NCBI GenBank assembly: GCA_050273025.1
Contig: CP158635.1
Span: forward strand, 10,168,001-10,232,000
Length of the DNA: 64,000 bases
From: Cenococcum geophilum
Lineage: Eukaryota
Direction of reading: 5' to 3'
Below the pieces are notes generated by a model. It was not told the origin of the DNA. It did not search any database and was given only the letters and a program-made list of their open reading frames with translations. Below are positions 7,508 to 33,930 of the stretch, in pieces. A program made the translations under genes and the position numbers. Each line of letters begins with the position of its first letter. The first letter of the stretch is position 1.

Positions 7508-10416
7508 ATGGTCAAGTAAGTCTTCATTTTGGTGCTTTTCTTGCTGAGATTGAGGATGATGCGATTCATTCAACTTATTTCATCCGACTTTCCACCCCTT
7601 CCCTTGAATTTAACCCTCCATCGCAAACAATTTGCTGACATCATATACAGCTTCACGGTAGAGGAGGTACGTTTACAGCCGCAGCATTTTCACAACTTTC
7701 AATAAAAGGCAAAAGACAAGAATACTGACAATGTTCGAAGATCCGTGGTCTCATGGACTCTGCGGCAAATATCCGCAACATGTCCGTTATTGCGCATGGT
7801 GAGTTGGCAATCGAATGATGAGCCCAACGGAAATTTTTCTAACTCCGCCAAAAAATTTAGTCGACCACGGAAAATCCACTTTAACCGACTCTCTTGTGCA
7901 GCGTGCCGGTATTATCTCCGCCGCAAAGGCTGGTGAAGCCCGGTTTACGGATACTCGTGCGGATGAACAGGAGCGTGGTGTCACAATCAAGTCGACAGCC
8001 ATCTCCCTGTACGCAACACTTAAGGACGAAGAAGATATGAAGGATATCCCAGTCAAAGTTGAAAAGAATGACTTCTTGATCAACTTGATTGATTCTCCTG
8101 GTCACGTCGACTTCTCTTCCGAGGTCACTGCGGCTCTCCGTGTGACTGACGGCGCTCTCGTTGTCGTCGACACAGTAGAAGGTGTCTGCGTGCAAACGGA
8201 GACTGTGCTCCGACAGGCTCTTGGTGAGCGTATTAAGCCCGTTGTTATTATCAACAAGGTCGATCGGGCCCTCCTTGAACTCCAAGTCACAAAAGAAGAT
8301 TTATACCAGAATTTCTCTCGTGTCATCGAGTCTGTCAACGTCGTTATTGCGACGTACTATGATAAGGCTCTTGGTGATGTCCAGGTTTATCCAGACAAGG
8401 GCACTATTGCTTTCGGTTCTGGTCTGCACGGCTGGGCTTTCACCGTCCGTCAATTCGCATCTAGGTACGCCAAGAAATTCGGTGTTGACAAGAACAAAAT
8501 GATGGAGCGTCTATGGGTAAGAAATTACCATATCTTCCTTGCGCAAAACGCTCCTAACTGAAAATATAGGGAGACAACTACTTTAACCCAAAGACGAAGA
8601 AGTGGACTAAGACTGGCACGCACGAGGGCAAGCCGCTCGAGCGTGCGTTCAACCAGTTCATCCTTGATCCCATCTTCAGGATATTCAATGCAGTCATGAA
8701 CTTCAAGACTGACGAGATCCCAACTCTCCTTGAGAAGCTCGAGATTAAGCTCACTAGTGATGAAAAGGATCTTGAGGGAAAGGCTCTGTTGAAGGTTGTC
8801 ATGAGGAAGTTCCTTCCTGCCGCTGATGCTCTATTGGAGATGATGATTCTCCACCTGCCTTCCCCAGTCACTGCCCAGAAGTACCGTATGGAGACCCTCT
8901 ATGAAGGCCCTCACGACGATATCAATGCGATTGGTATCCGCGACTGTGATCCTAAGGGGCCTCTCATGTTGTACGTCTCCAAGATGGTGCCGACTTCCGA
9001 TAAGGGTCGATTCTACGCTTTCGGTCGTGTCTTCTCGGGTACCGTCCGTTCCGGTCTCAAAGTTCGCATTCAGGGACCAAACTACACTCCTGGTAAGAAG
9101 GAAGATCTATTCATTAAAGCCGTTCAACGTACTATTCTCATGATGGGTCGTTTCGTCGAGCCAATTGAGGATGTTCCCGCCGGTAATATTCTGGGTCTGG
9201 TCGGTATCGATCAGTTCTTGCTCAAGTCCGGTACCTTGACCACCAACGAAACCGCACACAACCTGAAGGTCATGAAGTTCTCCGTCTCTCCTGTCGTCCG
9301 GCGCTCCGTTGAAGTCAAGAATGCCCAGGATCTACCCAAATTGGTCGAAGGTCTAAAGCGTCTGTCAAAGTCGGATCCCTGCGTCCTTACCTACATTTCC
9401 GAATCCGGTGAGCACGTTGTTGCTGGCGCTGGCGAGCTGCACTTGGAAATCTGCTTGAAAGATTTGGAAGAGGACCACGCTGGTGTGCCACTTCGTGTAT
9501 CCGACCCTGTTGTGCAATACCGTGAAACTGTTGGCGCTACCTCAAACATCACGGCCCTTTCCAAGTCGCCCAACAAGCACAACCGTTTGTATGTCATTGC
9601 TCAGCCGTTGGACGAGGAAGTTTCCGTTGCCATCGAACAGGGTAAGATCGGCCCCCGTGACGATTTCAAGGCCCGTGCTCGTATCCTTGCTGATGAACAC
9701 GGCTGGGATGTTACCGATGCCCGAAAAATTTGGTGCTTCGGTCCAGACACTAGCGGCGCCAACTTGCTCGTTGATCAGACAAAGGCTGTTCAGTACCTGA
9801 ACGAAATCAAGGATTCGGTCGTTTCCGGTTTCCAGTGGGCGACCAAGGAAGGCCCAGTCGCTGAGGAGCCCATGCGGTCGATCCGTTTCAACATCATGGA
9901 CGTCACGCTACATGCTGATGCCATCCATCGTGGCGGTGGGCAGATCATCCCTACTGCTCGTCGTGTGCTCTATGCTGCTACCCTTCTTGCTGAACCTGGT
10001 CTTCAGGAGCCCGTCTATATGGTCGAAATCCAGGTGCCCGAACAAGCCATGGGCGGTATCTATGGTGTGCTTACCCGAAGAAGAGGTCACGTCTTCGAGG
10101 AGAACCAACGTATTGGTACTCCTCTTTTCAACGTCAAGGCTTTCTTGCCTGTCAACGAGTCATTCGGTTTCACTGCCGATCTACGATCAAATACTGCCGG
10201 TCAGGCTTTCCCACAGTTGGTGTTCGACCACTGGCAAATTCTGCCTGGTGGTTCACCACTTGATAAGACAACAATGCCTGGTAAGGTTGTGGAGGAGATG
10301 CGGAAGAGGAAGGGTATCAAACCTGATGTGCCAGGTGTGGAGAACGTGAGTCACCCACCCATTTACGAGACAACCCGCTTGCTAATGAGTCTACACAGTA
10401 CTATGACAAACTATAG
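7508..10416 (+). CDS. EFT2: Translation elongation factor 2; exons 7508-7515, 7651-7666, 7741-7798, 7861-8516, 8570-10345, 10399-10416
   Basis: MVNFTVEE-IRGLMD...[15 protein letters not shown] (G1), DSPGHVDF (G3), NKVD (G4), diphthamide loop [14 protein letters not shown]-terminus YYDKL*. Canonical GT-AG introns restore the frame. Confidence 0.98.
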
Positions 10417-11139
10417 AGGGATGCTATCAAAAGTGATAGATTTCTTTACTCTTCCGACCTTGGGTTCAAAACGGCATTATTGGGGTTGCTCATTGTCACC
10501 TTTCTTCTATGAATTACGCAAAAGGGTATGGACATTTATGAAGCGTATGCCCGAATGAAGATAACGACGATGTATAGCAACAGGTTTCTCAAGGTCGGAT
10601 GTTAAACTGATTGCTGGCTGCTGATAGCAGTAGATAGTCCTTTCTTATCTTGCATATTCTCTTGTGATGTAGTTGTGGTGCTAGAATATAAACCACATGA
10701 ACACAATGGCTTCCTTTCTGTGCCTGTGACCTGTCACAGTTGTTGTGATACGCTGCAAGTTCTTATTGCTCAACTAGACCTTTCAGAGTCGGATCCTACC
10801 GTCCCCTAAGGGTATGAGTTTTGTTTGCAGCCTGATATGCCATTTTCATTAATAAACAGTTGTCCAAACGACAACATATCATGGAAGGCGGCCTACGTTT
10901 TTTGTGTGCATGCAGGGTCCGTTGCAGAAGTTTCATAAATTTAGGCTTGCAGACATTAGGCTATATTTCTATTTCTGGGGTCCCATATAAAAAATCGATC
11001 TTTGAAAAAAGGTCTAAAAGTAGTTTTCAATAAGCGAAATTCCAGCCAATAAAATATTGGCAATAGTTTGGATAAAATTATTATAGTAGAATATACTTAT
11101 TTCAAAAATAAAGATTATATAAATTATTGGCAGTAATTA

Positions 11140-12270
11140 AGCTCGGGCCCTTCGCGAGGACCTTCGCGGGTAAGCTGTGCACGGAGCTCCACCAAAGCTC
11201 TGCAAAAGCTCTGCACGAAGCTCTACTCGGAGCTCTACTCGGAGCCATACTCGAAGCTCTGCTCGAAGCCCTATATAGAGCCCTAAAGCTCTACTAACAC
11301 GCAGCACTAATATACTAGGAAGGTTCTATAATCGGCCGTACGAACGCCCATACGATTAGTCGCCATACAATCGTCCCTACGAACGGCTCTATAAATGTCG
11401 CACGATCGCCCGTACGAACGCCTATATAATTAATTGATCGATTAATTAATTACCTATACAAACGCCCGTACGAACGCCTATACGATTAATTAATCAAACG
11501 TCTATATAATCGCCCATACAATCGTCTATACGAAAGTCTCTACAAACGTCTCTACAAATGTCTGCACGAACGCCTGCACGAACACCTATATAAAGCTCTG
11601 CTTAAAGCTCTATATAATGCCCTTCATAAGGCCTTTAAAAACAAGCCTAAATACAAGGTCTATATAGAGAAGCTCTATCAAAGCTCTATTTAAAGCTCTA
11701 ACCAGGCTCTGCTCGAGGCTCCGCTCGAAGCTCTGCTCGAAGCTCTACTCGAAGCTCTATCAAAACTCTGCTCGAAGCTCTATCGAAGCTCTGCTCAAGG
11801 CTCTGCACGAGGCTCTACTCAAAGCCCTATCAAAGCTCCACTTGAAGCTCTGCTCGAAGCTCTGCTCGGAGCCCTATCAGGGCTCTGCACGGAGCTCTAC
11901 TCAAGCTCTACTCAAAAGCTCTACGCGAGGCTCTGCTCGAAGCTCTACACGACACTACACTCTAAGCTCTACTAACACGCAGCACTGATATACTAGGAAG
12001 ACTCTATAATCGTCTATACGAACGGCTCTACAACCAATCGATTTATCAATTAATTGCCTATACGAACGCCTGCACGCCTAGACACCTATACGTCTACACG
12101 CCTGCACGCCGCACGTGGTTCTGCATAAGGCTCTGCGCGAACCCCTGTACGAAGCTCTACTAAAGCTCTACACGAGGCTCTGCCTAAAGCTTACCACCCG
12201 CTGCGAAGCAGCCCCCGTAGCGCAGCACGACGGAGGGATAGGATTTGCTTCGTAAATCCCTACCAACTAG
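11140..12270 (+). mobile_element. Putative non-autonomous Helitron; 3' end at 12270, 5' end not resolved
   Basis: Hairpin GGATTTGC-TTC-GTAAATCC (12241-12259; perfect if one CpA>TpA change is reverted) is followed 7 nt later by CTAG|T (12267-12271). A second hairpin GCTGC-GAA-GCAGC lies just upstream. Confidence 0.5.
11170..12190. repeat. 12-bp minisatellite arrays (GAAGCTCTGCTC-type and GAACGCCYRTAC-type) with a higher-order duplication
   Basis: Dozens of degenerate 12-mers. The spacer CTACTAACACGCAGCACTRATATACTAGGAAG occurs at 11291 and 11969. Confidence 0.85.
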
Positions 12271-12676
12271 TATCTATAGGTTAAAAGTCTTTTTTTACTA
12301 GCAGTTAAACAACTCCTCTATATTAAAAAGTAATAAGTCTGCTTTAGAAGCCATAATATTTAATAATTTATCCGTACGATGCTGAAGTTAAAAATTTGAA
12401 GGGGTGCTAAGAAGATCTGCAAATATTACGAATATCGCCAATACTCGCCAATATTAATTAGTGCCAATATTGATTAATCTAATTGGCCAATATTGAAAAT
12501 AAAAACCACGCTGGGTCGTACTATCTCTTAAGGGTCTAAGTTTTGTTTGCAGCCTATACTAAAGCATGTTCATTTTGGAGTATATGGGGTTTTAATAGCA
12601 ATATATAACAACCTCCCTATACCTTCGCCTCCCTGCCGTTCTATATTGGAGACGGGACATTTCTTTTCATGATAAG

Positions 12677-15359
12677 CTAAGAGTAATCCCCTGGACCATC
12701 CTGCCTGTTCGATCTACTTGGCACCTGTACGAGATGAGGTTCTGCAGCCAAGTTTCCCCCCTTATCCATATCCCATAACAAGATATGACGTGACCCGACA
12801 ATGATAACAAGGTGTGCCTGCAACTCAAGACTTCGTTTCTCCACCAGTTGCTGCACATAAGTGCTCTTGATATAATCCCTTAGCTGCGGGCCATCATTTT
12901 CCATAACCCATGATTCAATTGTTCCCTGGTGGTGCCGGTCCCAAGTAGAGAATCTAAGCTTAAGAATTTCGGGGAGCTTGTAGTCGCGCAGGGTTTTTAA
13001 TTTAGCAACAATATTCGCATTTCTGTTACCGTCAACTTGTACATCTAGGAAGTTAATTCGATAGCACTTCCATTCGATAACTATCAGCCGTCCAGGAACC
13101 TGGAAGAGAAGATCGATACGACCCTTCATTAGGTCTAGCTATATAAGACGTTAGATATTATCTAGCTAATAGTAAGTAATAGATTAATTACCTTGATCAC
13201 TTGGAATTCTGCGCGTGGAACAAGATAAGGGTTTCCTAGGAGGCAGGAATAGAAGCTATCCCGATGGCCTACTTCACCCGTTTCGGTAACATCTCTAATA
13301 GTGACGTCCCGTTGTATCATCAATTCTCGATAAACACCCAACGTTCGTTTAAGTTCTCCGTAGTTAATGAGATGCTGAAGTGCTTCTACGAGAGAGTTAC
13401 GTAGATCATACTTTTCAAGAACCGCGAGAATAATACGATTTTCCGCAACACTATTCGGTATCTTAAGGTGCGTTGTCGGCTTTTCTGGGTGAAACGTAAG
13501 GCCGCCGAAGTATACAATTAGTGAACGCCACGAATAGTGACTTTCAGCCCTACTCTAGAAGAGAGATAAGTTAGTATAAGCGGGAACTGGGGCTAAGATA
13601 TTAGCATACCAAGTCTTGAAGCGTAAATTCGCGTTTGAATCGGCCGTATTCTAGAGGTATAAAGTGTCCATTTTCGTCACGTTTTAGTGCGTCTTCGAAG
13701 TCTTTTATTACTGGCGCTGAAGCAGCAAATCTCCGAAGAAACTGTTCAGATACTTCAGAGTTTTCCGGGTCTTGAGTCTCTGGTTTCACTCGCTCGATAC
13801 AACACTGAAGATATGCCAAGCACGTCTCTGTGTTGTAAACAGTTTTGACCGTTTCATCATTACAGAAATGATATCCGTTGAAACATTTAGTCATTTCTGA
13901 AAGAAAATGGTTGTAGTCTTTAGGGCCTTCGCAGATTCCCTTTAGAGCATCTTCTAAGTCTGAATACGTTAAACCACAAAGCCCGGCTAGGTCCCTATGG
14001 AATGACAGATTTCTCGTCACATTAAACGCACTGCCGAGACTGGATAAGGAGAGCGGTGAGATGCCCGTGATGAAAATTCTTCGGATGATCCCTTCTGTGC
14101 CCAATGACTTTATTGTAGCCCAAAAAGATTTGAAAGTTTGTCCGGCTGCTGCATCATCCCAAGCGATCTTGGGTCCTTTGACGGTCTTAGGTGGTTCGAG
14201 GTAGTTGTTAAGGAAAGCATCGTACTCATCAACGAGCACGTAGATCCCTTCAATACTATGAAGTCGCTCATCCTGCTTAATTGCATCTTGAACTAACTCG
14301 GCACACTGCTGAAGACTAAGGTTGGGCTCGTTAATGTCAATATTTTGACATAGATCAGCAAAGTTTCCGCCTAAGTATGCAGTATATGTTCTATAGAACG
14401 TCTTAAGGGAAGAATTTAAGAACTTGAGAAGCGCGTTATCCGCCTTCACAAGATCTGAGCTGGATTTGACTTTAGAAAAATCGAATTTTAAGACAAAGTA
14501 CTGTCCGGGTTCCACATAGTTTTCGTTTTTTGCTTTTCTTTCATTGATATCTTTTTGCACATCAAGCCCCTAGAGTAATTAAAAGAGAAGTAAGTTCTCA
14601 CGTTAAGGTAATTAAGGATATTGTTGCATACCTTATAGAGTGATTGATGTTCACCTGCATACTGAAGACCGTGGAAATGTTCTAGCATGCTTACTGTTAA
14701 TGTTTTGCCGAACCGACGTGGACGGCAGAAAAGGATGGAAGTGTGGAGTTCGTGCAACTTAAAGATGTAGCGAGTACGATCAAAGTAAGCCTGGCCCTCT
14801 TTCTGTAGAAGTTTGGAAAAATTTTCATCTAATCCGGATTGGAAGAACTTCAGTTTGCCGTTAATTATTAGGCTGCTATTACCAACTTTGATTCTCTTTG
14901 GTAAACGCGCTATATCAGTATAAGGTGGACTCTTTCTCTTCCCCGTCTTAGGGTCTGCAGTGTGTTCTGCTAACATAATATGGATTAGTGTAAAGAGAAC
15001 GATAAAGGTGTGTGGTCGGTGAACTTACCAGTGCTGGTATCTTGCTCCTTCCCTTTCTGTACCATACCGGCGGTCTCCCCCCCGGCGATCTCACTCGCTA
15101 GATCCGCGAGCCTCTCGCTGGTCCCAATAGGCAGGTTGCATTCTTTGTGGAAGTACTTCTTGTCACCAGCATATTTTAAGAAGACAACCCCGTCGATAGA
15201 TGAGTCTTTGAATTTCTCAAGTTTGTCACCTTTGAGCAGTTTCGGTACCTTTTGTTGAATCCACTCAAGCAGCTCGTCTTCATCCCACTTTTTTATCTCC
15301 TCGATTGCGGGCTTTGTGTGGCTGGCATGCTTGGGGTTATGTTCTGGAAAGGATTCCAT
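12677..15359 (-). CDS. SAM-like header + AAA-ATPase-like (PF09820-type) P-loop NTPase + PD-(D/E)XK nuclease; Crinkler/CR-type architecture. Exons 15359-15029, ~14970-14632, 14569-13610, 13554-13192, 13138-12677
   Basis: SAM-like IKKWDEDELLEWIQQK...IDGVVFL...LPIGTSERL; Walker A CRPRRFGKTL; Walker B YVLVDEYDA; FITGISPL..AFNV; FNGYHF..VYNT; LIVYFGGLT..LKIPN; nuclease motif EFQV..GRIDLL..LIVIEWK. Four GT-AG introns join the three ORF-track segments and the 13554-13192 exon in frame. Confidence 0.85.
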
Positions 15360-15873
15360 GGCGGTTGATACGGTGTAGGAAGCAGGCGTAGGAGTGGCGG
15401 CAGAGGGCAAGCAAGTAGAAAGAGAAGGCACAATGGCCAACCGGTAGACGATATCAGGGTCAGGATTCCAAGATGGGGAGGTAAGAAAAGCTTGTTCGAG
15501 ATGAAGGTGGTTGGATTGACAAAAGGAACTCATGAGTCCCTAAATGAGATTTGTCAAGCCACTACTAAATGTTCATACCACGTGACTTCTACGCCTCACG
15601 CGAAATCCCATTCTCTCGTCATGGCGAGCCTTCCGCTGCTGCCCAGCAGACTGCATAACACACTCCCATTTCGATACACCTATCATATTGCACCGGTCCG
15701 AATTGCCCTTCTTCTCGTTAGGATATATCTGGCGCGTCGGAAACCCGTGCACCACGGAATCCTTCGCTGACCCGCGCTCGACTCTGTCCATTGCCGCAAT
15801 CTCTCCCCAGGAACCGCTCCTCCAAAAGCATTCCTAAAACTTTGCGCGACGCTCATGCGCCACACGGATCAAT

Positions 15874-18449
15874 ATGCATATTGACGAAGCAGACTCGCCA
15901 GCTCTCAAAAAATGGATCGTTCCTAAATTGGAGGCCATGTAAGGCGTCCGCGCGCTCTTCGCTGCCCACTAGTTGCTGATTATGGATTTAGTTCTGATGC
16001 AGATTCCGATGTCCTTGCAGATTACGTGATCGCTCTTGTTAAGTCTGAAGATTCGGATGAGCAGGTGAGGAGGAATTGTCTTGAAAACCTGCCGGACTTT
16101 CTTAGAGACAGTAAGGAATTCTTGCACCTGGACTAAAGACCTATTACTGACATGAGACAGACACGGGCACTTTCGTAAACGGCGTCTTCGATGCTATTCG
16201 CACTAAATCATTTTTGCCTGGTTATGTTCCTCCCACCACGTCAACCCTGTCTGCGACAGCCCCTGCCTTCAATCCTCCCAGCGGACCCTCGGCCGGCACG
16301 AACAGACAAACGAACCTCCCAGGGCTATTAAACGGAGGTTACAATGGAAAAGGCGATCAATCACGAAAGCGGAGCTATAACGAGCGCGAAACTAGCGAAT
16401 CGAGGGATGGACGCGATCCTCATTACAGCAGAGGTGCTGGTGGGGATAGGTCAGTAAAGCAAATAAGGAGAGGTGGGAGAAACAGTCGTCAAGGAGGACT
16501 CCCCGGCCAGGATGTTGCCATGGGAGGTCTTCCAGGTCTCTCAGGTATGCCAGGGGCCTCTTTGCCTAACATGTCGGCATTACCCTCAATGCCTACTCCT
16601 CCGCCCGGATTCCCGTCTTTCGACCCCAACAATCCATTAGCTGGTCTTCTCGCGATGCAGGCCATGGGATTTCCCCTCCCGGGAATGCCACCGTTACCAT
16701 TGGCTGGTTCTCCTCCAGCATTTGGTCAAGCAGGATCGCCTGGACGTGATCTTCCGCCAGGAAGAAAGGAGAGGTGTAAAGATTATGATACCAAAGGATT
16801 CTGTGCGCTGGGTAGCGTCTGCCCATACGAACATGGAGCGGACCACCTGGTTGTTCCTCCTTCAGCAGAGGGTATATATATTTCATCACTCCGAGACTCA
16901 CGAATCAGGCGGGACTACGACGCTAACGAACCGGTGCTAGAATATGACCCCAACAAAGCATCTCTTGCGGTGGAGCCCCATAAGCCCACTAATGGACATG
17001 GATCTTATGACGGCCATCGTAACGGTGATAGAGGACGAGGACGAGGCCGTGGGCGTGGTGATAGGGGTGGTTTCTCGAGTAATCGAGGACGTGCATCCTT
17101 CTCTCACGCCGGTCCGAATTTCGACCGCTCGAACACGACCGTGGTTGTGGAGCAAATTCCCGAAGAGAAGTTCGACGAACAATCAGTTCATGACTTCTTT
17201 TCGCAATTCGGCAACGTTGTCGGCATCCAAATGCAGGCTTACAAACGGCTTGCGATTGTTAAATTTGATGACTATTTTGCAGCTCGCGGCGCCTACGATA
17301 GCCCCAAAGTTATATTTGACAACAGATTCGTCAAGGTATATTGGTATAAACCTGATGCAGTTCCCACGCCACCTGCTCACCCCAACGGCTCGGCAAAGAC
17401 TGCATCGCCTCCCGCTTCCAAGCCGGATGAGGAAATGATCGACCCAGCTGAGATCGAGAAACGGCAAGCCGAGGCTCAGAAAGCATATGAAGAGAAAATC
17501 AGGAAGCGTCAGGAGGCAGCGACACAGCGTGAGGAGCTTGACAGGAAATTGAAAGCGCAAGTAGAAGAAAAGAAGAAATTGCTCGAAAAGCTAGCGGCTA
17601 AGACGGGTGGGAAAGCACCAAGTGTCGAGGCCGAAGCTCCAGCGGCGGAAGAGGGCAGCAGTGCGTCTACTGCGGAGAGCAAGAAGAAAGAAGCCTTGGA
17701 AGCACAGCTTGCGGCGCTTGAGGCTGAAGCTAAGAGTATTGGACTTAATCCTGAGGAGCCATGGCAAGGTCAAGGAAGGGGAAGAGGCAGGGGCGGATAT
17801 AGAGGTCGCGGAGGCTATTTCCCACGAGGGCGCGGTTTTGATCCATATAGAGGGTCTTATCGCGGCCGAGGTAGCTTCACCGGTGCACCGTATGGTGGTG
17901 GGCGTGGTGGAGTCAAGAGACTTGACAATCGGCCTAAGAAAGTTGCAGTGGCAGGAGTCGAGGCGGGAACGGAGAGAGATGAGGCCTTGCGGCAATATCT
18001 ATTTGTTGGTCTCCGATGTTGCACCTCACACGAGGAGAATTTTGATTGGCTAACAATTCTGGTAGAACAACTTTGATTTCGAAAGCATAGAGCCGCATCC
18101 GGACCGCAAAGACGCCCAGGTTGTCACCTTCAAGGAGCGCTATGTCGCTGAGAGCGTACGTCCCCAATGTCCTCTTACAACGTTACCTTTCTATATACTG
18201 ACAGAATTCCAGTTCATTTCCACCGCAACCGAAATTCCCAATGCTGGGAAAGTTGAACTCTCCTGGGTCAACAGTACCCCTACCGCTGCTGCTCCAGCTG
18301 CAGCTACTACTCCCGCCAAGCAAGAACCGGCCATTGATAACGACGTTGCTATGGGGGAGCATGCTAATGGCAGCACAGATCATAGCGTGAGAGGCGGAGA
18401 GGTAGACTACGATGTTGCCGATGATGAGGATCGCTGGATGGCGACGTAG
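15874..18449 (+). CDS. RBM26/27 (Rmn1-like) RNA-binding protein: PWI-like N-terminus, CCCH zinc finger, RRM, coiled coil, RGG boxes. Introns ~15939-15991, 16111-16160, 16872-16940, 18005-18065, 18156-18212
   Basis: LKKWIVPKLEAISDADSDVLADYVIALVK; CKDYDTKGFCALGSVCPYEH; RRM TTVVVEQIP...AIVKF...FDNRFVKVYW; RGRG repeats; C-terminal DYDVADDEDRWMAT*. Confidence 0.88.
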
Positions 18450-22688: not shown

Positions 22689-23289
22689 ACAATTGTCCAC
22701 CGGCACTGATTCCTTCTCTTGCACTCTTGTCGAGCTGTTTAGCGTCTATGGTCGGGAGCATTTAGATACCCACTCCGTACCACCGCTTGTTTTCGACACT
22801 TAATGCGTCATATATATATATTTTATGTCTTACATTGAGTTCCGGGCCATTGCCATCCGCACGGCGATGTGCTTTGGATACTTAGGGGGTTGGGAGGTGT
22901 AATAATATTGGGCTGGGTAGATGGTGTGATTTGGAGAGGGATTAGATGTGGGAGGAAGATTTAATGGGCTGGTGGATGGTGGGGAGGAAGTGCATAGGGG
23001 TGAAGAATATCATGAGACCTGGTGCAGATAGATATTTTTGTATATAGCTTCCTGACTCTAATGGTAATAGAGGTATTCTTAAATCAGTATTGCTTAAGTT
23101 TAGTCGCCAGCGTAATATTACAAATAAATTAGGCGAAGTACAGTCGCTTCGGAAAAGGATGGGTTTATGTCAGAAACCATGATCAACCACAGAAATTTAC
23201 CGAATCCTCACCTGTTTGAACCACTTTTCTGTACCCGCGCATGACACCACCCATTGCCTTATTATTATCTTATATTTAAAGCCATGGGC

Positions 23290-24362
23290 AACCCCGCCTG
23301 GTTGACCGAATAGAAGTTAATTATATAAGCTCTAATTAACCTTAGCTGCGACAACTTCTATATAGAAGTTAAGACCCGCGTTCCTTACTCTACTCTTTAA
23401 CACTAAAGGGCGAATTTAAAGAGGTATGGCTAGATTAATCCACTAATTAGGGGAAATGGCAGGCCACTATTACTTATAGATGATGCTCTAGATGTATAAC
23501 GTCAGGTAATAATATTAATATTAATTTTACTAATAAACGCGTACTAATTAGGGCCTCCTTAAATACCTTATATATAGTCCAGACGCCTATTTTAAAGAGA
23601 TGCTCTAGTTTCTATACGACGAATATAATATAATAGTAGTACGAAGTATACTGTTGGCTAGATTAAAGCGAAGAAAATGGAGTAGAAAGGTTATAAGGAT
23701 AATTGCGCAATAGCGTAACCTAGGCCTAAGGGATAACTAGATTATTTAAATCTGTAACTATAGACGCGATTAGTTTATCTTTATTAATAAATTAGCTTAT
23801 AATAAGAAGATAATAAATAGAAAGTATAAATAGGCGCTAATTAATAAGCCTGCTAAAGGAATATCGGAATTAAAGAGATCTAAAAGATGGAGCTTGCTGC
23901 CAGCGTATACCTATTAGGGCTATATGCCTGGCTAGTTAATATACTAGGGCGCTATTAATAGGCTAATGTTTATTAAATGGATAAAGAATAAGGTTCTTAC
24001 TTATATATAGCTTTATCCACAGCCTTATTTAGTTCTAGTAATAGATAATATATTAATCCATTGTAATAAGGTATATAGTGTCTATAAAGGATAGGTGTTA
24101 ATACTATTACTTACTTAAACCTAGGAAGTTTAACGCCTCTATAATACTGCTAGTGTTAGGCTTAAATATCTTCCTCCTTATTTACCCGATTTTAATTTAA
24201 TTAAAGCTTCTTTTTATAACTTAAAGTAGTGGCTATATGCTTATTAATTTAAAGCTAATCTATAGAATAACTTTAGTAACTTTTTAAGCTACGCGGTAGA
24301 GCAATAAGGATTTAATAAGAGGGCAAAAGGCTATTTCTTACGGGTAGGAATTAAGAGGTAGT
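23290..24362 (+). pseudogene. RIP-inactivated DDE (Tc1/IS630-type) transposase
   Basis: De-RIPped reading gives ERWSLLPAYT..GY, VLVMDNASIH-like and LPPYSPDFNPIEASF motifs; many TAA/TAG stops. Ends approximate. Confidence 0.7.
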
Positions 24363-25900
24363 ATAAAAAGGATAAGGTCTAGTCTTTTATAATATATCTA
24401 TATAGGGTGTTTGCTAATTAAGACGTTAAGTAAGGCCTCTACTGTAGTATTAGAACGTCGCTAATTCGTTCTAAGGTCTTCTAAGTAGTTTACTATACGA
24501 TTAATAAGCCTATATATTAAACTAATCCTATATAGCTTTATATAGCCTATACTACTATTAAGTAGCGCGTACTTAAGTAACTTAAAGTTATAGTCCTCCT
24601 TAATTAAAATTAACTCTGCTTTAGTAAAGGCGTTAGCAATAACTAGGTAATGGCTTTATAGCTATTTAGTAAAGGCGCTAAGCTTACTATTTAATTATTT
24701 AATATTGCTATAGGTGGGACTACTAGGTAGTAGGTTTATAGGTATAGTTAGGGGTAGATAGTAATAGGTAGGCGTTTTAGAGGATAAAGCTGGAACTAAT
24801 AGAGCGCTTTATAATAACGGCACTAATAAAGATCTTGTATTTGGTATAGGGTCCACTATAAAATAACTATTAGCGATAGTTAGTTATACGGAAGGAGGCA
24901 TTGCCGCCTATATAGTATTCTGCATCTATTATAGCATCTATTAGTTCTACTACCGTATCTAGTTTATTAAAACCGTTACCGCCACTAATTGGTCTTGCTG
25001 CGGAATAGGATTGGCTGGTGATTATATAACTATAGTATAAGCCTCTCCTTATTACTGCCGTTGTCTTAGGGGGGAGCTTATTAATTTATTTGTGCTGCTA
25101 GAGTTATCTTAACGGTGCTTATAGCTATCCGACTTTATATCTTTTTTATCCTCCTTATCCTATATACGTTTACTATACCTAATCTTTAATAGTAGCGGTA
25201 GATCTAGGAAGTTAAGCGTGGCTTTCTTCTGTTTAATTGCTTCTAACTAGCGCGCCTAGTAGTAAGTATATAATAGGTAGTGCTTTAATTTAAATTTAAG
25301 ATAGTATATAATACTATACTTTTTATTCTTATAGTGCTGTTAAAGGTAGTAATAACGTTTAATTAGCGGGTATATATGCTTGCCTTTAACTTCTATATAG
25401 TTACGTCGTTTAGCAGCCTCTTTCTATATTTTAGTAGTGGTAGTTAATCTCTTCTTTTTACTAATAACTTCCTCCACTATACCTTCGTAATCCTTACTAG
25501 AGGACCCTACTTTCTTACCGGCCGCTGCTTTAGTTAGAAAACCTACTACTTAAAGCGCTGCCTTAACACGCGCATTAACAGCCGCATTAACAGCCGTAGC
25601 AATTTTAGCATCTCTGGCTTTAGTAGACGCGTTAATAGCCGTAGCAGCGGTCTTATATCTAACTATAAAATTAACCTAAAAAGCCTTCCTTGCGTACTTT
25701 AATTGTATCTCTATTATTCCCTTTACTTTACGCCATTTATCTATATTATTAACTTCTTTAGGTATTATAGGATCCTTTAGACTTAATGTAATAATAGCAG
25801 TTAATTAATTAAGCTAGAAAAAATAAAGGCTATAATATTTGCTAGCTTAACGCGTATTTTCGGCAATAAACTTTTAGAATTTAAAGACTCTAAATAAAAC

Positions 25901-28900
25901 TGTTACGAACGCTTTAAGTACAATGTTACGACTACTTGGAGAAGAGTTAGAAGAAGCTAGTTGGTTAATATAAGCACGGTTAAGGATAGAACCCGTGGAA
26001 CCATATGACGAGGAATAGTAAGCAGAGTTACGTAACGTAATCTGTATAATCTATATAATCTATAAGATCTATTATAGAGCGAACAGAGTAGATAGAGCGG
26101 ATAGAGCAATGACTTTCTTAGGAGTACGGTTATGTATTTAAGGACCCTTAGTCCCTACCTAGATAGTTCCTTTCTTATAGTAATTCTTAGAATATAATTA
26201 GAGTTAATCTGTTAGGCAACCACTCCACTAGTTATTATTACGTTGTTAACTATTGTCTTTGCATTTCCTATACACCTAGCCTATTAACAGAACCCATTAT
26301 AGTTTCTCCTATAAGGTTCTGTTATATAATTACTACCTAGTTACGGTATTAAATATAAAGTTGAATAATATGTCACTAAAAGCAGCTACTACCACGCTAT
26401 TAACGGCGGCAACTACTTTAAGGTTAGGGGGTGATACTAGTATAGTGGACACAGACTCGCAACAACCTATGACGGTAGGATAATTATAGGAAATAGTGGA
26501 TTGATTAACAGAAAATAATACGGTACTTAAAAACAGACTTAATAGAATTGGAGTAGTAAAGGTTAAGTTACTATTAATTAAACGATTCTTAGGAGAGAGA
26601 TTAAAGCTTAAAGGATTTCTAACGCAGATGCATTTTAAAGTCATGTAAGAAGGGGCTAAGTTAGCCATAATAATAGACTAGATAGCCTACGCAGGACTAT
26701 TCCTAATAGGTTAGGCACTTAAATAGTTTAAGCCCTACTTAACAGAAATATAGACTAATGGGATAACTACTGCTAATTAAGAAGTATGATTTATGTTTTC
26801 TAGCTAGGTAGGATTCGCGGAACAATTAATATAGATATTTAGGGACCCGGAAGTAACGACTATAGTAAAGAGAAAGCTTTAGGACCTAATATAGCGAACT
26901 TTAGTAATTAAGTACATGATATAGTTTTAAACACTTATAATATAGGTTAAATGGAATAATAAGGCGCTTATAGCATAGTATAAATAAGGACTTAAGGCTA
27001 AAGTCTAGGACGTAATTATTCTAATAGAAGATGTGGACACCCTAAGGGAATTAATAGATTAAGTAATTAAGATTAATAATAGGATCTTCTAAAGGGAATA
27101 GGCTAAGAAAGGCTAGGATAGAGTTTTATAGTTATATAAGACGTAGAATACGTAACGACTAAAGTTAAGTTAGAAACTATGGTATAGCGCAGAGCTAATG
27201 GACCTAAGTGGCACTAAAGAAGCCTATAAGAGATGGAGTAAAAAACTATAAAAACCTAGAGGTTAGGGATCTAGTAATTATAGGACTAAGGAGTAGAGGC
27301 TAAACCAGGGATCTTAATAGCAGAAGATATTTAGGCGGACTTTATAATAAAGTTAATGGTTTAGAGATAGAGTTTATATAAATTGCGGAAAATAGGGTTA
27401 CTTTATAAGGGATTATAAAGATAGTTAGAGTTACTATATAATAAAGGGAACTAGACTAATAGTAGAAGACATATACGTATAGAGGGACGATAGTGTACTA
27501 TAAGGAATAAAAGAGTGTTTAATTAAAAGCTTTACGTTTTGTTATAATAACGTATACCAAATTTATAAAGACGCTAAGTATAGTGCAAGCTATTAGCTAT
27601 AAGAGCTAGAGTTAAGAGGACTTAAAGGAACTATAAAGTTAGATAAAGAATAAGATCAACTTTACGAGCTGGATTAAGATGTTATAGTAATATACGGATA
27701 ATAATTAGTAATAATAACAATAGAGTTAGAGTACTTATTAATTAATAGCGACGAGGATAGTAAGGGAACTAACTAGGAGTATTTAAACCTTAATAACGTA
27801 ATAGAAGTAGAGACTAAGACCGCTATAAAGTAAGGTTTAGTAACGGGTATTATAATACCGTTAAATATAGTATTTATCGCTTTACAAGATGGAAGGAGTA
27901 ATATCTAGAAACGATTAAGTAGACAAACAACTACTAGTGCTAGCTTACTACTTAATAAAGGCAAAAGGCCAAAGGCTTAAAATTCTTAAGACGAGATAAG
28001 AGATAACTAAGATTCTTAAGACGAGATAAGGCATACCTAAAGACCCACAACGGACGAAAACTAATAGAGTAGGGTAGTAGCTTAGTTCAAAGATATACAA
28101 ATAAGCTTAGGATAAGAATTCCCAACGGTATAAGATTCTTAAGACGAGATAAGTAAGATCTAGGACTCTTAAGATGAGATAAGGATACTAAGTAAGCCTA
28201 GTTAGACTAAGGCTGGAGCTAAGCTTAAGACAGAAGTAAGCTTAGGATTAAAGAATCTAAGGGATTAAGAATTTGGAGTATAAATTAGAACACCCACAAA
28301 TAAGAGGCAAGGAGCTTCTTTATAGATTAGAAAATCTGCAGTATAAATAGCAACTAGACTAGGAGACAGATATATAGACCTAGAGGACTTACTAGGGGAA
28401 TATAGTATTTAGCCTAAAGATTAAAAAGTTAATACTAAGATTAAGAAGTAAAGAGACTTTAAGGATTTACTTATAAGACGCGACATAAAAGAAACTATAA
28501 AGGAATTTAGAGTAAGAATTACCTTATAGCAAGAACAGAAACTAGATAAGAGATCTAGCATATTAGGACGTATAAGGGACAGAGTGCTAGTATAAAGGAT
28601 TACTAATAGGCCTAGAGCAGGCACACTAAGAGCTAAGTGGCTTACTAAACTGGAATAAGAAGAGAATTTAGGGATTCCTACTAGGTTCAAAGAATAATAT
28701 ACTAAAGGCTATTACAACGCAGTAATAAAGAAATATTTCCTTACGGACAAGCCGTATACACTTAAGCAGCTATATTAAAGGTGGTATAGGCAATAATATA
28801 ATAATAAGTGGGAGGATTTCTATATATGGTTAGATGAAAAAGTTATCTAAGACCACTTAATTATAGAGAAGGCTATAACTTATATTAAGGGAGCCTTAAT

Positions 28901-31900: not shown

Positions 31901-33930
31901 GAAGTGTTTATAAGATATAGAGCACTAAATAAGATTATATTAGATAGAGATTTAAGATTCGTAGCAGCATTTTAGGAGGTATTCTTGGCGGAGTAAGGAG
32001 TTCGAGCAGTAACTTCTACCGCATATTATCCGTAGATAGACGGTTAAATAGAAAGATTAAACTAGACACTAGAATAGTATCTAAGATATTATATTAATTA
32101 CGCGCAGAATAATTGGGTATTGCTATTACCAGTTATATAGTTTGCATATAATATAACACCATAAGAAGGAATGGGTATGTTACTATTTAAGGCGAATTAC
32201 AGGTATAAACTAAGAACATTATTATCGCCACGTTAAGTAAAGAAAATAAGTAGTAGAGCTAAGTAAAGAATGGAGATTTTAATAAATCTTTATATAAACC
32301 TTATAGAAACAGCTAAGGTAGTATAGCAAAGAATGAAAAAATACTACAATACTAGGAGATCTGAGGGACTAGATCTTAAGGAGGGGGATAAAGTATGGCT
32401 ACTATATAAAAATTTTAAGAGTTAACGACTAAGTAAGAAATTGGACTATATTAGACTAGGACCTTTTAAAATTACATAAAGGATTTTACCGGTTACGTTT
32501 AAGTTAAACCTACTAGCTAAAATAAAGATCTACCCTATATAGTATATTGCGATGCTAGAGCTAGTATATAGGAATGTTAAGCTACCGGTTTATAAAGCAG
32601 ATACGTATAGAGGATAGGAAGAAGATAAATAGCAAGTTTTGAAGATTGTTAGTTATAAGGATATTAACAATGAAATATAGTACGAGGTTAAGTGGATAGG
32701 CTATACTAAGACTACCTAGGAGCTACTAGAAAATTTAAAGAATGCTATAGGAAAGGTATAGGAGTATTGGAAGAAAAAGGATTAGGTAATATTAATAAAG
32801 GGAAATCGCCAAAGAATGAGCCACTTAAGGGGGATATAAGAGGAGCGACTACTGAACTACTTGGAGTTGTTTCCTATATTATAGGAGGAGAGTTAGTTTT
32901 CTTATTACCTAGTTCCTAAAGGCCTTATTCTATAAGCTTCTACTCCTTAGAACGAACCTTCTTATAAACGCGTTAAAGACGCTGAACTTTTATAAAGGTA
33001 GACTGCTAAGCCTTAAGGGCATAAGCAGATTCTTCGGATTGATAATAGGCTTCCGCCAGCGCCGCGGTAAGATTACCCTTAAGTTTTTCTGCCTTAGATT
33101 AAATATAAGACCCTAAGATAAATTAATTAGGGAACTAGACGACTATTAAGAGTAATAGGTTATATATATTTAGCATTAGAGATAGAGCGAATATTATAGG
33201 ACGAATGAATATTCGCTTTAGTGCACTCTAAGTAAGAGGACGGCTATTGCGAAAAAGGACTCGCTAGCGCAATATAAACTAACCCCTCTTTTGCATAATA
33301 AGAACACGGAGATGATATTATCTCACTAAGAGATAATATTATAGCAACGGTATGAGACCGACGGGCTATAGAAGAAGAAGTAGGTGCTTTAGGTATTATA
33401 AGTAATAATATTAACTAAATTAATTAGACGGATATTATACCTCTAGTGAATGACTTAGAGATGCTAGGTATCTTTAAGGACGAAGATAGAGAGAAGGGAG
33501 ATGGTGTTACGAACGCTTTAAGTACAATATTATAACTACTTGGAGAAGAGTTAGAAGAAGCTAGTTAGTTAATATAAGTATAGTTAAGGATAGAACCCGT
33601 GGAACTATATAACGAGGAATAGTAAGTAGAGTTATATAACGTAATCTGTATAATCTATATAATCTATAAGATTTGTTACAGAGTGAATAGAGTAGACAGA
33701 GTAGATAGAGCAACAACTTTCTTAGGAGTATGGTTATGTATTTAAGGACCCTTAGTCCCTACCTAGATAGTTCCTTCCTTATAGTAATTCTTAGAATATA
33801 ATTAGAGTTAATCTATTGGGCAACCATTCCACTAGTTGTTATTACGTTGTTAACTATTGTCTTTGCATTTCCTATACACCTAGCCTATTAACAGAACCCA
33901 TCGTAGTTTCTCCTATAAGGTTCCGTTACA
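25901..33930 (+). mobile_element. Full-length Ty3/Gypsy chromovirus LTR retrotransposon, RIP-degraded, nested in transposon copy 1
   Basis: 426-bp LTRs at 25901-26326 and 33505-33930 (TG...CA; left end reads TA); 5-bp TSD AAAAC; polypurine tract GAGAGAAGGGAGATGG. Order: gag, protease, RT (YLND from YLDD at 30482), RNase H, integrase (GPF), chromodomain (YEVKW.GY...TWE ~32680-32720). Confidence 0.95.

What the first reader, a model, noticed from the sequence alone, without database searches (positions are those of the whole stretch)
12677..15359. Intact fungal SAM + NTPase + restriction-like nuclease gene (Crinkler/CR-type conflict system) between housekeeping genes
Seen: a five-exon gene whose splicing restores one open frame with complete Walker A/B motifs and a D..ExK nuclease motif, behind an N-terminal SAM-like domain. 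Known: the AAA-ATPase-like + PD-(D/E)XK pairing is mostly prokaryotic; in eukaryotes, header + NTPase + REase proteins form the CR/Crinkler effector class, thought to derive from selfish elements. Inference: a candidate NTP-gated, SAM-oligomerised nuclease acting in cell death, allorecognition, antiviral defence, meiotic drive or host manipulation. No signal peptide is evident. It abuts a repeat relic, and its introns and 3' exons are TpA-rich, suggesting a multicopy family exposed to RIP.
Basis: partly seen in the sequence, partly recalled or inferred. Interest (0 to 1): 0.78.

Follow-up and report, generated by a model that had tools for sequence, protein, structure and literature searches.

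The report
Expressed fungal SAM–ATPase–nuclease conflict-type gene
This is a real, transcribed and correctly spliced fungal gene that joins a SAM-fold head to an ATPase and a restriction-enzyme-like nuclease; it belongs to a fast-turning-over multicopy family that looks like a genetic-conflict weapon, though nobody has yet tested what it does.

Summary
On the minus strand (ATG 15359, stop 12677) a five-exon gene gives one open frame. Spliced RNA contigs from three metatranscriptome runs show all four introns removed. Intron 1 uses a CAG acceptor 3 nt downstream of the TAG I first read, so the protein has 816 aa.

- **Head:** residues 19-93 fold as a SAM domain.
- **ATPase:** residues ~159-400 match PF09820, with intact Walker A and B motifs.
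- **Nuclease:** the C-terminus is a PD-(D/E)XK nuclease with E, D, ExK and Q conserved.
- **Origin of the body:** it is homologous from end to end to bacterial PF09820+PF08011 ("DUF1703") proteins.
- **Family behaviour:** patchy and multicopy, dispersed at non-syntenic sites. Some copies carry stops or deletions. Pairwise dN/dS is 0.33-0.69.
- **Crinkler link:** Mortierellomycota relatives carry a true Crinkler header on the same body. The window protein has no such header, so it works like a CR-type protein but is not a Crinkler.
- **Shared head:** the SAM-like head also sits on STAND/NACHT-like and other P-loop bodies.
- **RIP:** exposure to repeat-induced point mutation is not supported.

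Function is inferred: an ATP-gated nuclear nuclease used in genetic conflict.

The parts
12500..15516 (-). Transcript (minimum extent): 5' ends near 15501-15516, 3' end at or beyond 12500-12518
   Evidence: Spliced RNA contigs of runs X8, X14 and X15. Adaptor letters follow at 15501 and 15516.
15029..15359 (-). Exon 1 CDS (ATG at 15359): SAM-like head plus linker. It ends in intron phase 1.
15081..15305 (-). SAM-fold domain, residues 19-93
   Evidence: AF2 model with core pLDDT about 86-92. Nearly all the listed Foldseek PDB hits are SAM domains, the best with TMt 0.73-0.81. Profile match to Scm SAM, E 0.0023.
14967..15028 (-). Intron 1 (62 nt, GT..CAG; a TAG 3 nt upstream makes a NAGNAG acceptor). 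It separates the head from the body.
   Evidence: RNA joint 14966/15029 in 3 of the 4 runs laid.
14632..14966 (-). Exon 2: linker with an NLS-like motif and the start of the PF09820 ATPase, including Walker A
   Evidence: PF09820 profile positions 6-56, E 3.8e-14.
14887..14940 (-). Bipartite NLS-like motif KRK-x11-KRIK (residues 120-137)
   Evidence: Pattern search. A similar basic pair is seen in paralogues in the alignment. The NLS consensus is recalled, and localisation was not tested.
14701..14709 (-). Walker A G-K-T (residues 197-199) within RPRRFGKT
14570..14631 (-). Intron 2 (62 nt), inside the ATPase domain
   Evidence: RNA joint. The PF09820 profile continues across it.
13610..14569 (-). 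Exon 3: the rest of the PF09820 ATPase (Walker B DEYD at 14219-14230) and the middle region
   Evidence: PF09820 profile positions 70-200, E 6.4e-15.
13555..13609 (-). Intron 3 (55 nt)
   Evidence: RNA joint.
13192..13554 (-). Exon 4: helical linker domain and the first helix and strand of the nuclease (E636, H639-R-D, E658)
13139..13191 (-). Intron 4 (53 nt), inside the nuclease domain
   Evidence: RNA joint.
12677..13138 (-). Exon 5: nuclease core (D672 at 13112-13114; E685-x-K687 at 13067-13075) and the stop codon
12767..13275 (-). PD-(D/E)XK nuclease domain (about residues 636-787, interrupted by intron 4)
   Evidence: Model of the homologous part of P0001: pLDDT 92.8, alpha-beta-beta-beta-alpha-beta core. 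VIA-align top matches are CinB (Z 9.3), CidB (9.0), BpuSI (8.6) and Hje (8.4).
11190..12200 (.).
   Evidence: Tandem Repeats Finder: periods 12, 24, 35, 47, 70 and 82, with 70-92% matches.

Best explanation
The gene encodes an 816-aa intracellular protein with four parts. They are a SAM-fold head, a basic linker that looks like a bipartite nuclear localisation signal, a DUF1703-type P-loop ATPase (PF09820), and a C-terminal PD-(D/E)XK nuclease related to PF08011.

I read it as an ATP-gated nuclease acting on DNA in the nucleus. On this reading, nucleotide binding or hydrolysis by the ATPase controls assembly or substrate engagement and thereby licenses the nuclease. The SAM-like head supplies protein-protein contacts, either with itself or with other proteins carrying the same head, including STAND/NACHT-like ATPases.

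The family behaves like a genetic-conflict gene set (defence, cell death or selfish toxin), not like a housekeeping enzyme.

Shown here: the gene model, its expression and splicing, domain identities and folds, intact catalytic motifs, homology to the bacterial proteins, the multicopy, dispersed and decaying family, and the sharing of heads between different bodies.

Inferred: nuclear import, ATP gating, DNA as the substrate, SAM-mediated assembly, and the conflict role.
For: - **Expression and splicing.** One spliced contig in each of 3 of the 4 RNA runs laid, with all 4 introns removed.
- **ATPase.** PF09820 matches both exon 2 and exon 3 at 53-56 bits, against a cutoff of 26.1.
- **Homology of the body.** The fungal profile A1 (17 sequences) against the bacterial PF09820+PF08011 profile A2 (8 sequences) gives probability 100, E 1.2e-51, over 502 columns running through GRxD...ExK. 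35 of 38 columns invariant in the bacterial set are kept.
- **Nuclease.** E, E, G, D, E and K are nearly invariant across 55 aligned sequences. The model has pLDDT 92.8. Its best structural matches are mostly PD-(D/E)XK-fold nucleases, with Z up to 9.3.
- **Head.** SAM fold.
- **Family size and spread.** 7 paralogues in Rhinocladiella mackenziei. One Elaphomyces 90% cluster holds 28 member sequences, and there are several copies in Tuber, Choiromyces and Terfezia.
- **Metagenome copies.** 13 metagenome loci are 52-90% identical in protein. In one assembly, three copies lie at contig ends beside three different sets of ordinary genes, none like the window's neighbours.
- **Decay and rate.** 3 of 12 copies have an in-frame stop, and at least 2 have large internal deletions that remove the nuclease core. 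Pairwise dN/dS is 0.33-0.69 in 11 of 12 comparisons and 1.08 in one.
- **Head swapping on one body.** The SAM-like head is present in the window protein plus 5 of the other 135 family rows. A Crinkler header is present in 8 Mortierellomycota relatives. Copies L004 and L010 lose similarity to the window within about 40 nt of intron 1.
- **The same head on other bodies.** It occurs on STAND/NACHT-like bodies (P0078, P0195, P0073), a second P-loop body (P0193, P0067), a third (P0058, P0066) and a fourth (P0051).
- **Literature.** SAM and Crinkler domains are both reported as N-termini of fungal NLRs (PMC9815663, passages read).
Against: - No experiment bears on activity, substrate or phenotype. 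No member of the PF09820+PF08011 family that I found in the papers read has a tested function (PMC6387759, passages).
- No PADLOC defence model matches the exons or the homologues: 0 of 5 queries.
- The gene has ordinary neighbours and no immunity-type partner gene in the window.
- dN/dS is below 1 in most comparisons, so purifying selection acts, and a cellular role is not excluded.
- The Pfam PF08011 model itself does not match any of the 10 fungal proteins scanned, nor exons 4 and 5. The nuclease call therefore rests on profile-profile alignment and fold.
- The STAND/NACHT matches on SAM-headed proteins are all below Pfam's cutoffs (for example NACHT at 20.9-21.6 bits against 26.7). They sit on unnamed, probably truncated ORF calls.
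- The raw RNA-seq run X21 of a close relative showed almost no reads (7, all partial).
Confidence: 0.55

Rival explanations
1. The gene is a selfish element, not a host weapon. On this reading the NTPase+nuclease gene spreads by duplication, transposition or horizontal transfer, and may behave as a toxin, drive or addiction gene in the way transposon-derived NTPase-REase pairs do. The host merely tolerates it.
For: - Copies are dispersed at unrelated loci and break assemblies at contig ends.
- Some copies carry internal deletions or stops.
- An Elaphomyces cluster has 28 near-identical members.
- The window copy groups with Rhinocladiella (Eurotiomycetes) and Terfezia (Pezizomycetes), while other Pezizales copies lie in a distant clade (FastTree, support 99). 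This could reflect horizontal transfer.
- Bacterial relatives are also multicopy: 8 on one 4.07-Mb contig and 25 in Cardinium (PMC6387759, passages).
- The CR NTPase-REase modules are said to derive from transposons (review PMC5289972, passages).
Against: - No terminal inverted repeats flank the gene; only 8 weak chance-level pairs were found.
- Similarity between copies ends at different places near the transcript ends, not at one sharp element boundary.
- No transposase, integrase or reverse transcriptase lies next to the window copy or the three long-flank copies.
- The introns are shared between copies, and most comparisons give dN/dS below 1.
Confidence: 0.2
2. It is a Crinkler-type effector delivered into another organism (plant host, prey or competitor), where the nuclease damages the target's nuclear DNA.
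For: - The same body carries a true Crinkler header in 8 Mortierellomycota proteins.
- The linker is NLS-like.
- Transcripts identical to the window occur in runs labelled as fungus and root metatranscriptomes.
- CRN C-termini are commonly NTPase+HTH+REase and act in the nucleus (PMC5289972, passages).
Against: - No Crinkler or Ubl header and no LxLFLAK motif in the window protein.
- No signal peptide by eye.
- SAM heads are known on intracellular fungal NLRs (PMC9815663).
- No oomycete CRN appeared among the 120 listed family hits.
Confidence: 0.07
3. It is a domesticated housekeeping or repair nuclease, for example resolving or processing DNA structures in the fungus's own nucleus.
For: - The frame and catalytic residues are intact.
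- It is expressed in three runs.
- dN/dS is below 1 in most comparisons.
- It lies among ordinary genes.
- Structural neighbours include Holliday-junction resolvases at Z 7.5-8.4.
Against: - The taxonomic distribution is patchy.
- There are many paralogues per genome, non-syntenic copies, pseudogenised copies, dN/dS of 0.33-0.69, and N-terminal heads that are swapped between bodies.
Confidence: 0.08

Closest known systems
Bacterial DUF1703 proteins (PF09820 AAA-ATPase_like + PF08011 PDDEXK_9)
   Same: - Homologous across the whole body (hhalign probability 100, E 1.2e-51).
- Same Walker A/B and D...ExK...Q residues (35 of 38 invariant columns).
- Also prone to lineage-specific expansion (PMC6387759, passages).
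   Different: - The fungal protein has spliceosomal introns, a SAM-like head and an NLS-like linker.
- It has a long insert between the ExK strand and the last strands of the nuclease.
- The Pfam PF08011 model no longer detects its nuclease.
CR (Crinkler-RHS-type) proteins with header + P-loop NTPase + REase (Zhang et al. 2016; known to me only through the review PMC5289972, since the original paper was not held)
   Same: - A modular head followed by an NTPase and a REase-fold nuclease.
- Lineage-specific expansion and a prokaryotic origin.
- Mortierellomycota members of this same family carry the Pfam Crinkler header.
   Different: - The window protein's head is a SAM fold, not the Ubl Crinkler header.
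- Homology of its ATPase to oomycete CRN NTPases was not shown here.
- No evidence of delivery to another cell.
Fungal NLR-like proteins with SAM or Crinkler N-termini (Wojciechowski et al. 2022, PMC9815663)
   Same: - The same two kinds of head (SAM, Crinkler) placed in front of a P-loop NTPase.
- Birth-and-death evolution and head swapping.
- The window's head family also sits on STAND/NACHT-like bodies.
   Different: - No NACHT or NB-ARC domain and no C-terminal repeats.
- The NTPase is PF09820, and the output domain (the nuclease) is C-terminal.
CifB/CinB cytoplasmic-incompatibility nucleases of Wolbachia and other symbionts
   Same: - They are the best structural matches of the nuclease domain (7esz Z 9.3, 7esy Z 9.0).
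[quoted passage not shown]
   Different: - CifB has two nuclease domains and a cognate CifA partner. No cifA-like partner gene was seen in the window.
- Sequence identity is 11-12%.
- The Cardinium paper notes clear differences between the DUF1703 and CI-toxin core sites (PMC6387759).

Membership tests
PF09820 AAA-ATPase_like | Match to the Pfam model above the gathering cutoff | tested here: met
   Exon 2 scores 53.4 bits and exon 3 scores 55.9 bits, against a cutoff of 26.1. Together they cover profile positions 6-56 and 70-200 of 201.
PF09820 AAA-ATPase_like | Intact Walker A (GK[ST]) and Walker B (DEYD) | tested here: met
   RPRRFGKT and DEYD are present and aligned to the columns invariant in the bacterial set.
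PF08011 PDDEXK_9 / PD-(D/E)XK superfamily | Match to the Pfam PF08011 model | tested here: not met
   No PF08011 hit on exons 4 and 5 or on any of the 10 fungal homologues at E<=1. The model hits only the 2 bacterial-type proteins P0031 and P0034.
PF08011 PDDEXK_9 / PD-(D/E)XK superfamily | Homology to PF08011-bearing proteins through the nuclease core, with the catalytic D and ExK | tested here: met
   hhalign aligns fungal GRID...TEWK to the bacterial RxD...ExK. E88, E110, G121, D124, E137 and K139 are nearly invariant in 55 sequences.
PF08011 PDDEXK_9 / PD-(D/E)XK superfamily | alpha-beta-beta-beta-alpha-beta restriction-endonuclease-like fold | tested here: met
   The model of the homologous C-terminus of P0001 has pLDDT 92.8. 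Most of the 50 listed VIA-align matches are REase-fold nucleases, with Z 9.3-5.2. Foldseek E-values are weak, at or above 0.018. The model is of a 71%-identical paralogue, not the window protein itself.
Crinkler (CRN) / CR effectors | N-terminal Crinkler Ubl header (PF20147, LxLFLAK) | tested here: not met
   No PF20147 hit on exon 1 at E<=1. The head folds as SAM. The feature is met in 8 Mortierellomycota relatives.
Crinkler (CRN) / CR effectors | C-terminal P-loop NTPase coupled to a REase-fold nuclease | tested here: met
Crinkler (CRN) / CR effectors | HTH between the NTPase and the REase | tested here: inconclusive
   Residues 1-85 of the C-terminal model are helical with a short hairpin. 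They were not searched alone.
Crinkler (CRN) / CR effectors | Delivery into a target cell | not testable with these tools
   No signal peptide by eye. There is no experiment.
SAM domain superfamily | Five-helix SAM fold | tested here: met
   Helices at 19-23, 27-37, 45-52, 57-62, 67-73 and 78-93. Foldseek top hits are Scm, L3MBTL3, PHC3 and Ph SAM, with TMt 0.73-0.81 and rmsd 1.6-4.2.
SAM domain superfamily | Sequence match to a SAM family | tested here: inconclusive
   The profile of 74 sequences hits Scm SAM at E 0.0023. Scanned singly, no member reaches a Pfam SAM model. The nearest is SAM_Ste50p, in 1 of 74 members at E 0.077.
SAM domain superfamily | Self-association or polymerisation | not tested
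   No usable result was obtained here. It needs an experiment.
Fungal NLR (NOD-like receptor) | NACHT or NB-ARC NOD plus C-terminal repeats | tested here: not met
   Only PF09820 was found, and no repeat domain.

The most novel reading that the evidence does not exclude
The SAM-like head is a homotypic signalling adaptor of a fungal immune network not yet described. STAND/NACHT-like sensors and several unrelated P-loop executioner bodies, including this ATPase-nuclease, carry the same head. An activated sensor would therefore recruit and switch on a nuclear suicide or restriction nuclease through SAM-SAM polymerisation. This would be analogous to death-fold, TIR or amyloid-motif signalling, and to the SAM ring of SARM1.
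Probability: 0.15. Interest if true: 0.8.

Novelty: new variant of a known kind. Interest (0 to 1): 0.5.

Why it matters
NTPase-plus-nuclease modules are a recurring weapon in prokaryotic defence and in Crinkler-type eukaryotic effectors. Fungal members, however, are annotated only as uncharacterised proteins.

This locus gives an expressed, intact example with a head-body combination I did not find described in searches. The head is a SAM-fold domain from a large family: 280 clusters at 50% identity, which Pfam does not detect in single sequences. The same head also sits on STAND/NACHT-like ATPases.

That ties a bacterial-type nuclease body to the modular N-terminal domain pool of fungal NLR-like proteins. 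It also offers a testable entry point (toxicity, localisation, SAM interactions) into how fungi execute nuclear cell death or restrict foreign DNA. If the function proves to be ordinary, the locus is still a clean case of a prokaryote-derived gene family that gained introns, an NLS-like linker and swappable heads.

Tried and rejected
- **Whole genome.** None is held for this window. Paralogue counts and strain presence/absence in the source organism could not be made.
- **Earlier notes of this scan.** Nothing by place, words or sequence.
- **Original CR paper.** Zhang et al. 2016 was not held under its DOI or PMC id. The CR class is known to me only through the review PMC5289972.
- **PDB by sequence.** The family profile gave 0 hits at E<=1.
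- **PADLOC.** 0 families for 5 queries.
- **SAM self-association.** Complex prediction on two copies of the head (residues 12-100) returned 'no answer', score 0.00. This is evidence neither for nor against.
- **Tree.** The IQ-TREE 'quick' run did not finish in 288 s. The tree reported is FastTree only. It used rows of at least 480 aa: 61 rows, drawn from the 67 fungal rows and 10 hand-picked bacterial rows considered, out of 136 in the family file. Long-branch warnings were given for P0030, P0031, P0034 and P0251.
- **Transposon structure.** No flanking inverted repeats.
- **A second copy in the window.** None by tblastn or HMM.
- **RIP.** Rejected as a strong signal. The composite index is -0.04 for the gene, and only exon 4 is clearly positive at +0.46. 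Among 29 window-private changes, 14 are GC-to-AT and 7 are AT-to-GC transitions, and 3 lie in a RIP context.
- **Head search among longer proteins.** Only 8 hits.
- **Atlas searches.** Leads only.
- **Organism.** I did not try to decode the coded organism names.
Full report
**1. Is the gene there?**

Yes. Reading the minus strand, an ATG at 15359 opens a frame that four short introns interrupt. All four have GT..AG ends, and introns 1, 3 and 4 have CTAAT or CTAAC branch-point-like motifs. Joining the exons gives a CDS with no internal stop.

RNA confirms it. Of 24 runs listed for the stretch 12500-15600, 20 hold at least half of its sampled words. I laid four of them. Runs X8, X14 and X15 are metatranscriptomes from three different studies. 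Each holds one contig of 2.76-2.82 kb that matches the window with 0-1 mismatches. Each contig skips exactly 13139-13191, 13555-13609, 14570-14631 and 14967-15028.

Three introns are as I read them. Intron 1 uses a CAG acceptor 3 nt downstream of the TAG I had chosen (a NAGNAG site). That removes one alanine from the linker and gives 816 aa. Sequencing adaptor follows the contigs at 15501 and 15516, so the 5' UTR is about 145-155 nt. The 3' end lies at or beyond 12500-12518. The fourth run, X21 (raw RNA-seq of a close relative), gave only 7 partly fitting reads, so expression is not universal.

**2. What are the domains?**

*ATPase.* Pfam on the separate exons finds PF09820 (AAA-ATPase_like) split across intron 2. 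Profile positions 6-56 fall in exon 2 (E 3.8e-14) and 70-200 in exon 3 (E 6.4e-15). Walker A (RPRRFGKT) and Walker B (DEYD) are intact.

*Nuclease.* The Pfam PDDEXK_9 model (PF08011) hits neither the C-terminal exons nor any of 10 fungal homologues. Three other lines do identify the nuclease:
- A profile of 17 fungal homologues aligns to a profile of 8 bacterial-type relatives, 4 of them carrying PF08011, with probability 100 and E 1.2e-51 over 502 columns. The alignment runs from the ATPase N-terminus through GRxD...ExK.
- In a 55-sequence alignment, E88, E110, G121, D124, E137 and K139 of the C-terminal segment are nearly invariant. In the window protein these are E636, E658, G669, D672, E685 and K687.
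- 35 of the 38 columns invariant in the bacterial set are identical in the window protein. hhalign also pairs one of the three 'misses', an E.

I folded the homologous 250 residues of paralogue P0001 instead (71% identical over the tree alignment). The model has pLDDT 92.8 and pTM 0.86, with an alpha-beta-beta-beta-(insert)-alpha-beta-beta core. Foldseek ranks mostly PD-(D/E)XK nucleases first, but weakly (E at or above 0.018). VIA-align against 48,161 chains gives CinB Z 9.3, CidB Z 9.0, BpuSI Z 8.6, Hje Z 8.4, then AF1548, NucS, Hjc, McrC, Cas4 and R2 RLE. The tool warns that Z 7-8 is common for models in general. Here the agreement among most of the listed rows and the conserved catalytic residues carry the argument.

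*Head.* Exon 1 matches no Pfam family; the only hit is CH at E 0.009, below cutoff.
- A full HMMER search of 1.84 billion representatives found 280 proteins at E<=0.001 and 129 at E<=1e-10. Most are short ORFs.
- A profile of 74 of them hits the Scm SAM domain at E 0.0023 over the whole domain.
- The AF2 model has a core pLDDT of about 86-92 over residues 19-93. Nearly all its listed Foldseek PDB matches are SAM domains: Scm, Ph, PHC3, L3MBTL3, Shank, SARM1 and others, the best with TMt 0.73-0.81.
- Scanned singly, none of the 74 members reaches a Pfam SAM model; SAM_Ste50p appears once at E 0.077.

So this is a divergent SAM-fold family that Pfam does not cover.

*Linker.* Residues 120-137 read KRK-x11-KRIK. 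Similar basic pairs occur in the paralogues. This fits the classical bipartite NLS pattern, which I recall from memory and did not test. The N-terminus is hydrophilic, so there is no signal peptide by eye.

**3. The family**

The best matches to exon 3 among longer proteins are 7 paralogues of Rhinocladiella mackenziei, 59-73% identical. A profile search gave 122 proteins at E<=1e-10, of which 120 are listed. They come from:
- Terfezia, Tuber, Choiromyces and Maublancomyces.
- Elaphomyces, where one 90% cluster holds 28 member sequences.
- Orbilia, Arthrobotrys and Trichoglossum. Armillaria came from the first search.
- Many Mortierellomycota and Ambispora. Jimgerdemannia came from the first search.
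- Bacterial PF09820+PF08011 proteins, including 8 on one contig of an Ectothiorhodospiraceae genome.

In a FastTree of 61 rows of at least 480 aa, rooted on 10 hand-picked bacterial rows, the fungal proteins form one group (support 97). The window protein falls in an 11-row clade (support 99) with the Rhinocladiella copies and three Terfezia copies. The other Pezizales copies sit in a distant clade. The Mortierellomycota and Jimgerdemannia copies form a third. This tree has local support values only and carries long-branch warnings. The more careful run did not finish.

**4. Heads are swapped**

Within the 136 family rows, the SAM-like HMM hits only the window protein and 5 Rhinocladiella paralogues. 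Two other Rhinocladiella paralogues carry a different, long N-terminus. Eight Mortierellomycota proteins carry the Pfam Crinkler N-terminal domain PF20147 in front of PF09820: P0025 at E 6.4e-07 and 30.5 bits against a cutoff of 24.6, and 7 precomputed rows.

At the DNA level, copies L004 and L010 are similar to the window only up to 15066 and 15037, within about 40 nt of intron 1. Copies L008 and L009 keep the SAM exon. Intron 1 therefore sits at the head-body joint.

Conversely, the SAM-like head occurs on other bodies:
- P0078, P0195 and P0073 share a body with a GxxGxGKS P-loop. P0078 and P0195 match several STAND families (NACHT, nSTAND3, nSTAND5, NPHP3_N) at E 6e-5 to 8e-4, all below the Pfam cutoffs. 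P0073 itself gave no STAND hit; it joins the group by being 73% identical to P0195.
- P0193 and P0067 share a second P-loop body.
- P0058 and P0066 share a third.
- P0051 has a fourth.
- P0125 holds three SAM-like repeats in tandem.

The Atlas places the P0193 body near clusters named 'Archaeal ATPase' and 'Crinkler family protein' (score 0.95). That is a lead only. Wojciechowski et al. 2022 report both Crinkler and SAM_Ste50p domains as newly annotated N-termini of fungal NLRs (PMC9815663, passages read).

**5. Turnover**

A metagenome scan gave 13 loci, 52-90% identical in protein. DNA similarity to the window is 66-95% and runs through the introns, so these are DNA-level duplicates or orthologues. 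L012 aligns as one unbroken stretch, so it is apparently intronless.
- In one assembly, three copies (L002, L005, L006) each lie at a contig end. Each sits beside different ordinary genes: a P4-ATPase and a P450; CPSase and cofilin; Rpn11 and a histone deacetylase. None resembles the window's neighbours.
- L002 lacks residues 665-765 and L013 lacks 512-707, so both have lost the nuclease core.
- L007, L010 and L011 each have an in-frame stop.
- Pairwise Nei-Gojobori dN/dS against the window is 0.33-0.69 in 11 of 12 comparisons and 1.08 for L011, with dS 0.09-0.43.

This is birth-and-death evolution under weak constraint, not the pattern of a housekeeping gene.

**6. Surroundings and RIP**

- *Left of the gene.* An EF-G/EF-2-family GTPase gene lies at 7803-10558. 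A degenerate 12-bp minisatellite follows at about 11190-12200, then an AT-rich stretch that holds the 3' UTR.
- *Right of the gene.* A gene with a 641-aa ORF (16151-18076) matched no Pfam family at E<=0.001.
- *TE structure.* No inverted repeats flank the gene, and there is no second copy in the window.
- *RIP.* The window has two AT-rich blocks, at 23-34 kb and 56-64 kb, with strong RIP-type indices (composite +1.16 and +1.22). The gene's composite is -0.04 and its neighbours' are -0.6 to -0.8. Exon 1 (49% GC, -0.74) looks like the neighbours. Exons 2-5 are 42-46% GC, and only exon 4 is clearly positive (+0.46).
- *Polarised substitutions.* Against the copies, 29 changes are private to the window: 14 GC-to-AT and 7 AT-to-GC transitions, with 3 in a CpA/TpG context. 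There is a mild AT drift, but no RIP signature.

**7. How it most likely works**

I commit to an ATP-gated nuclear nuclease used in genetic conflict, at 0.55. The steps shown and inferred are listed under Best explanation.

The rivals are a selfish spreading gene (0.20), a delivered Crinkler-type effector (0.07) and a domesticated repair nuclease (0.08). The remainder is unassigned.

No paper among those listed in searches treats the fungal members. One search found 36 papers holding a family term, of which 25 were listed. The relevant ones concern Cardinium, hemipteran horizontal transfers, cif genes, and PD-(D/E)XK classification.

**8. Verdict**

- **Observation:** confirmed.
- **Interpretation:** partly supported. 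The CR-type body and the conflict-type evolution hold. Crinkler membership and RIP do not.
- **Novelty:** a new variant of a known kind.
- **Interest:** 0.5.

Noticed in passing
window 35818-51534 (-): A single uninterrupted 5239-aa ORF encodes a multi-module nonribosomal peptide synthetase, with repeated AMP-binding, Condensation and PP-binding domains. It lies between the two AT-rich blocks.
   Followed up: partly
window 23000-34000 and 56000-64000: Two AT-rich blocks (about 32% GC) show strong RIP-type dinucleotide bias: TpA/ApT 1.62-1.68 and composite index +1.16 and +1.22. I did not look for TE remnants in them.
   Followed up: no
window 14967-14972: Intron 1 ends in a tandem TAG-CAG (NAGNAG) acceptor. 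All three RNA contigs use the downstream CAG. Use of the TAG would add one alanine.
   Followed up: partly
P0125 (295 aa, unnamed): This protein consists of three tandem copies of the SAM-like head (3 matched stretches; internal repeats).
   Followed up: no
P0193 (790 aa) and P0067: The SAM-like head is followed by a different P-loop body, which by eye ends in a D...QxK-like motif. No Pfam family matches. The Atlas places it near 'Archaeal ATPase' and 'Crinkler family protein' clusters. It may be a second SAM+NTPase+nuclease architecture.
   Followed up: partly
tree: Three Terfezia (Pezizomycetes) copies group with the Rhinocladiella (Eurotiomycetes) copies and the window at 65-72% identity. 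Tuber and Choiromyces copies are about 40% identical and lie in another clade. This could be horizontal transfer or old paralogy. It rests on FastTree only.
   Followed up: partly
L001-L013 against window 12500-15600: Among the copies, intron p-distance (about 0.03-0.18) is often lower than the synonymous distance dS (0.09-0.43). This could be gene conversion, a constraint on the short introns, or an artefact of the simple method.
   Followed up: no
P0234-P0241: Eight paralogues of the bacterial PF09820(+PF08011) protein lie on one 4.07-Mb contig of an Ectothiorhodospiraceae bacterium. These are the closest bacterial relatives of the fungal family among the listed hits.
   Followed up: no
window 15417-15418: All 5 reads of run X21 covering this 5'-UTR position read GA where the window has AG. 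Their upstream parts do not match the window (loose ends at 15390). The relative's 5' region differs there.
   Followed up: no
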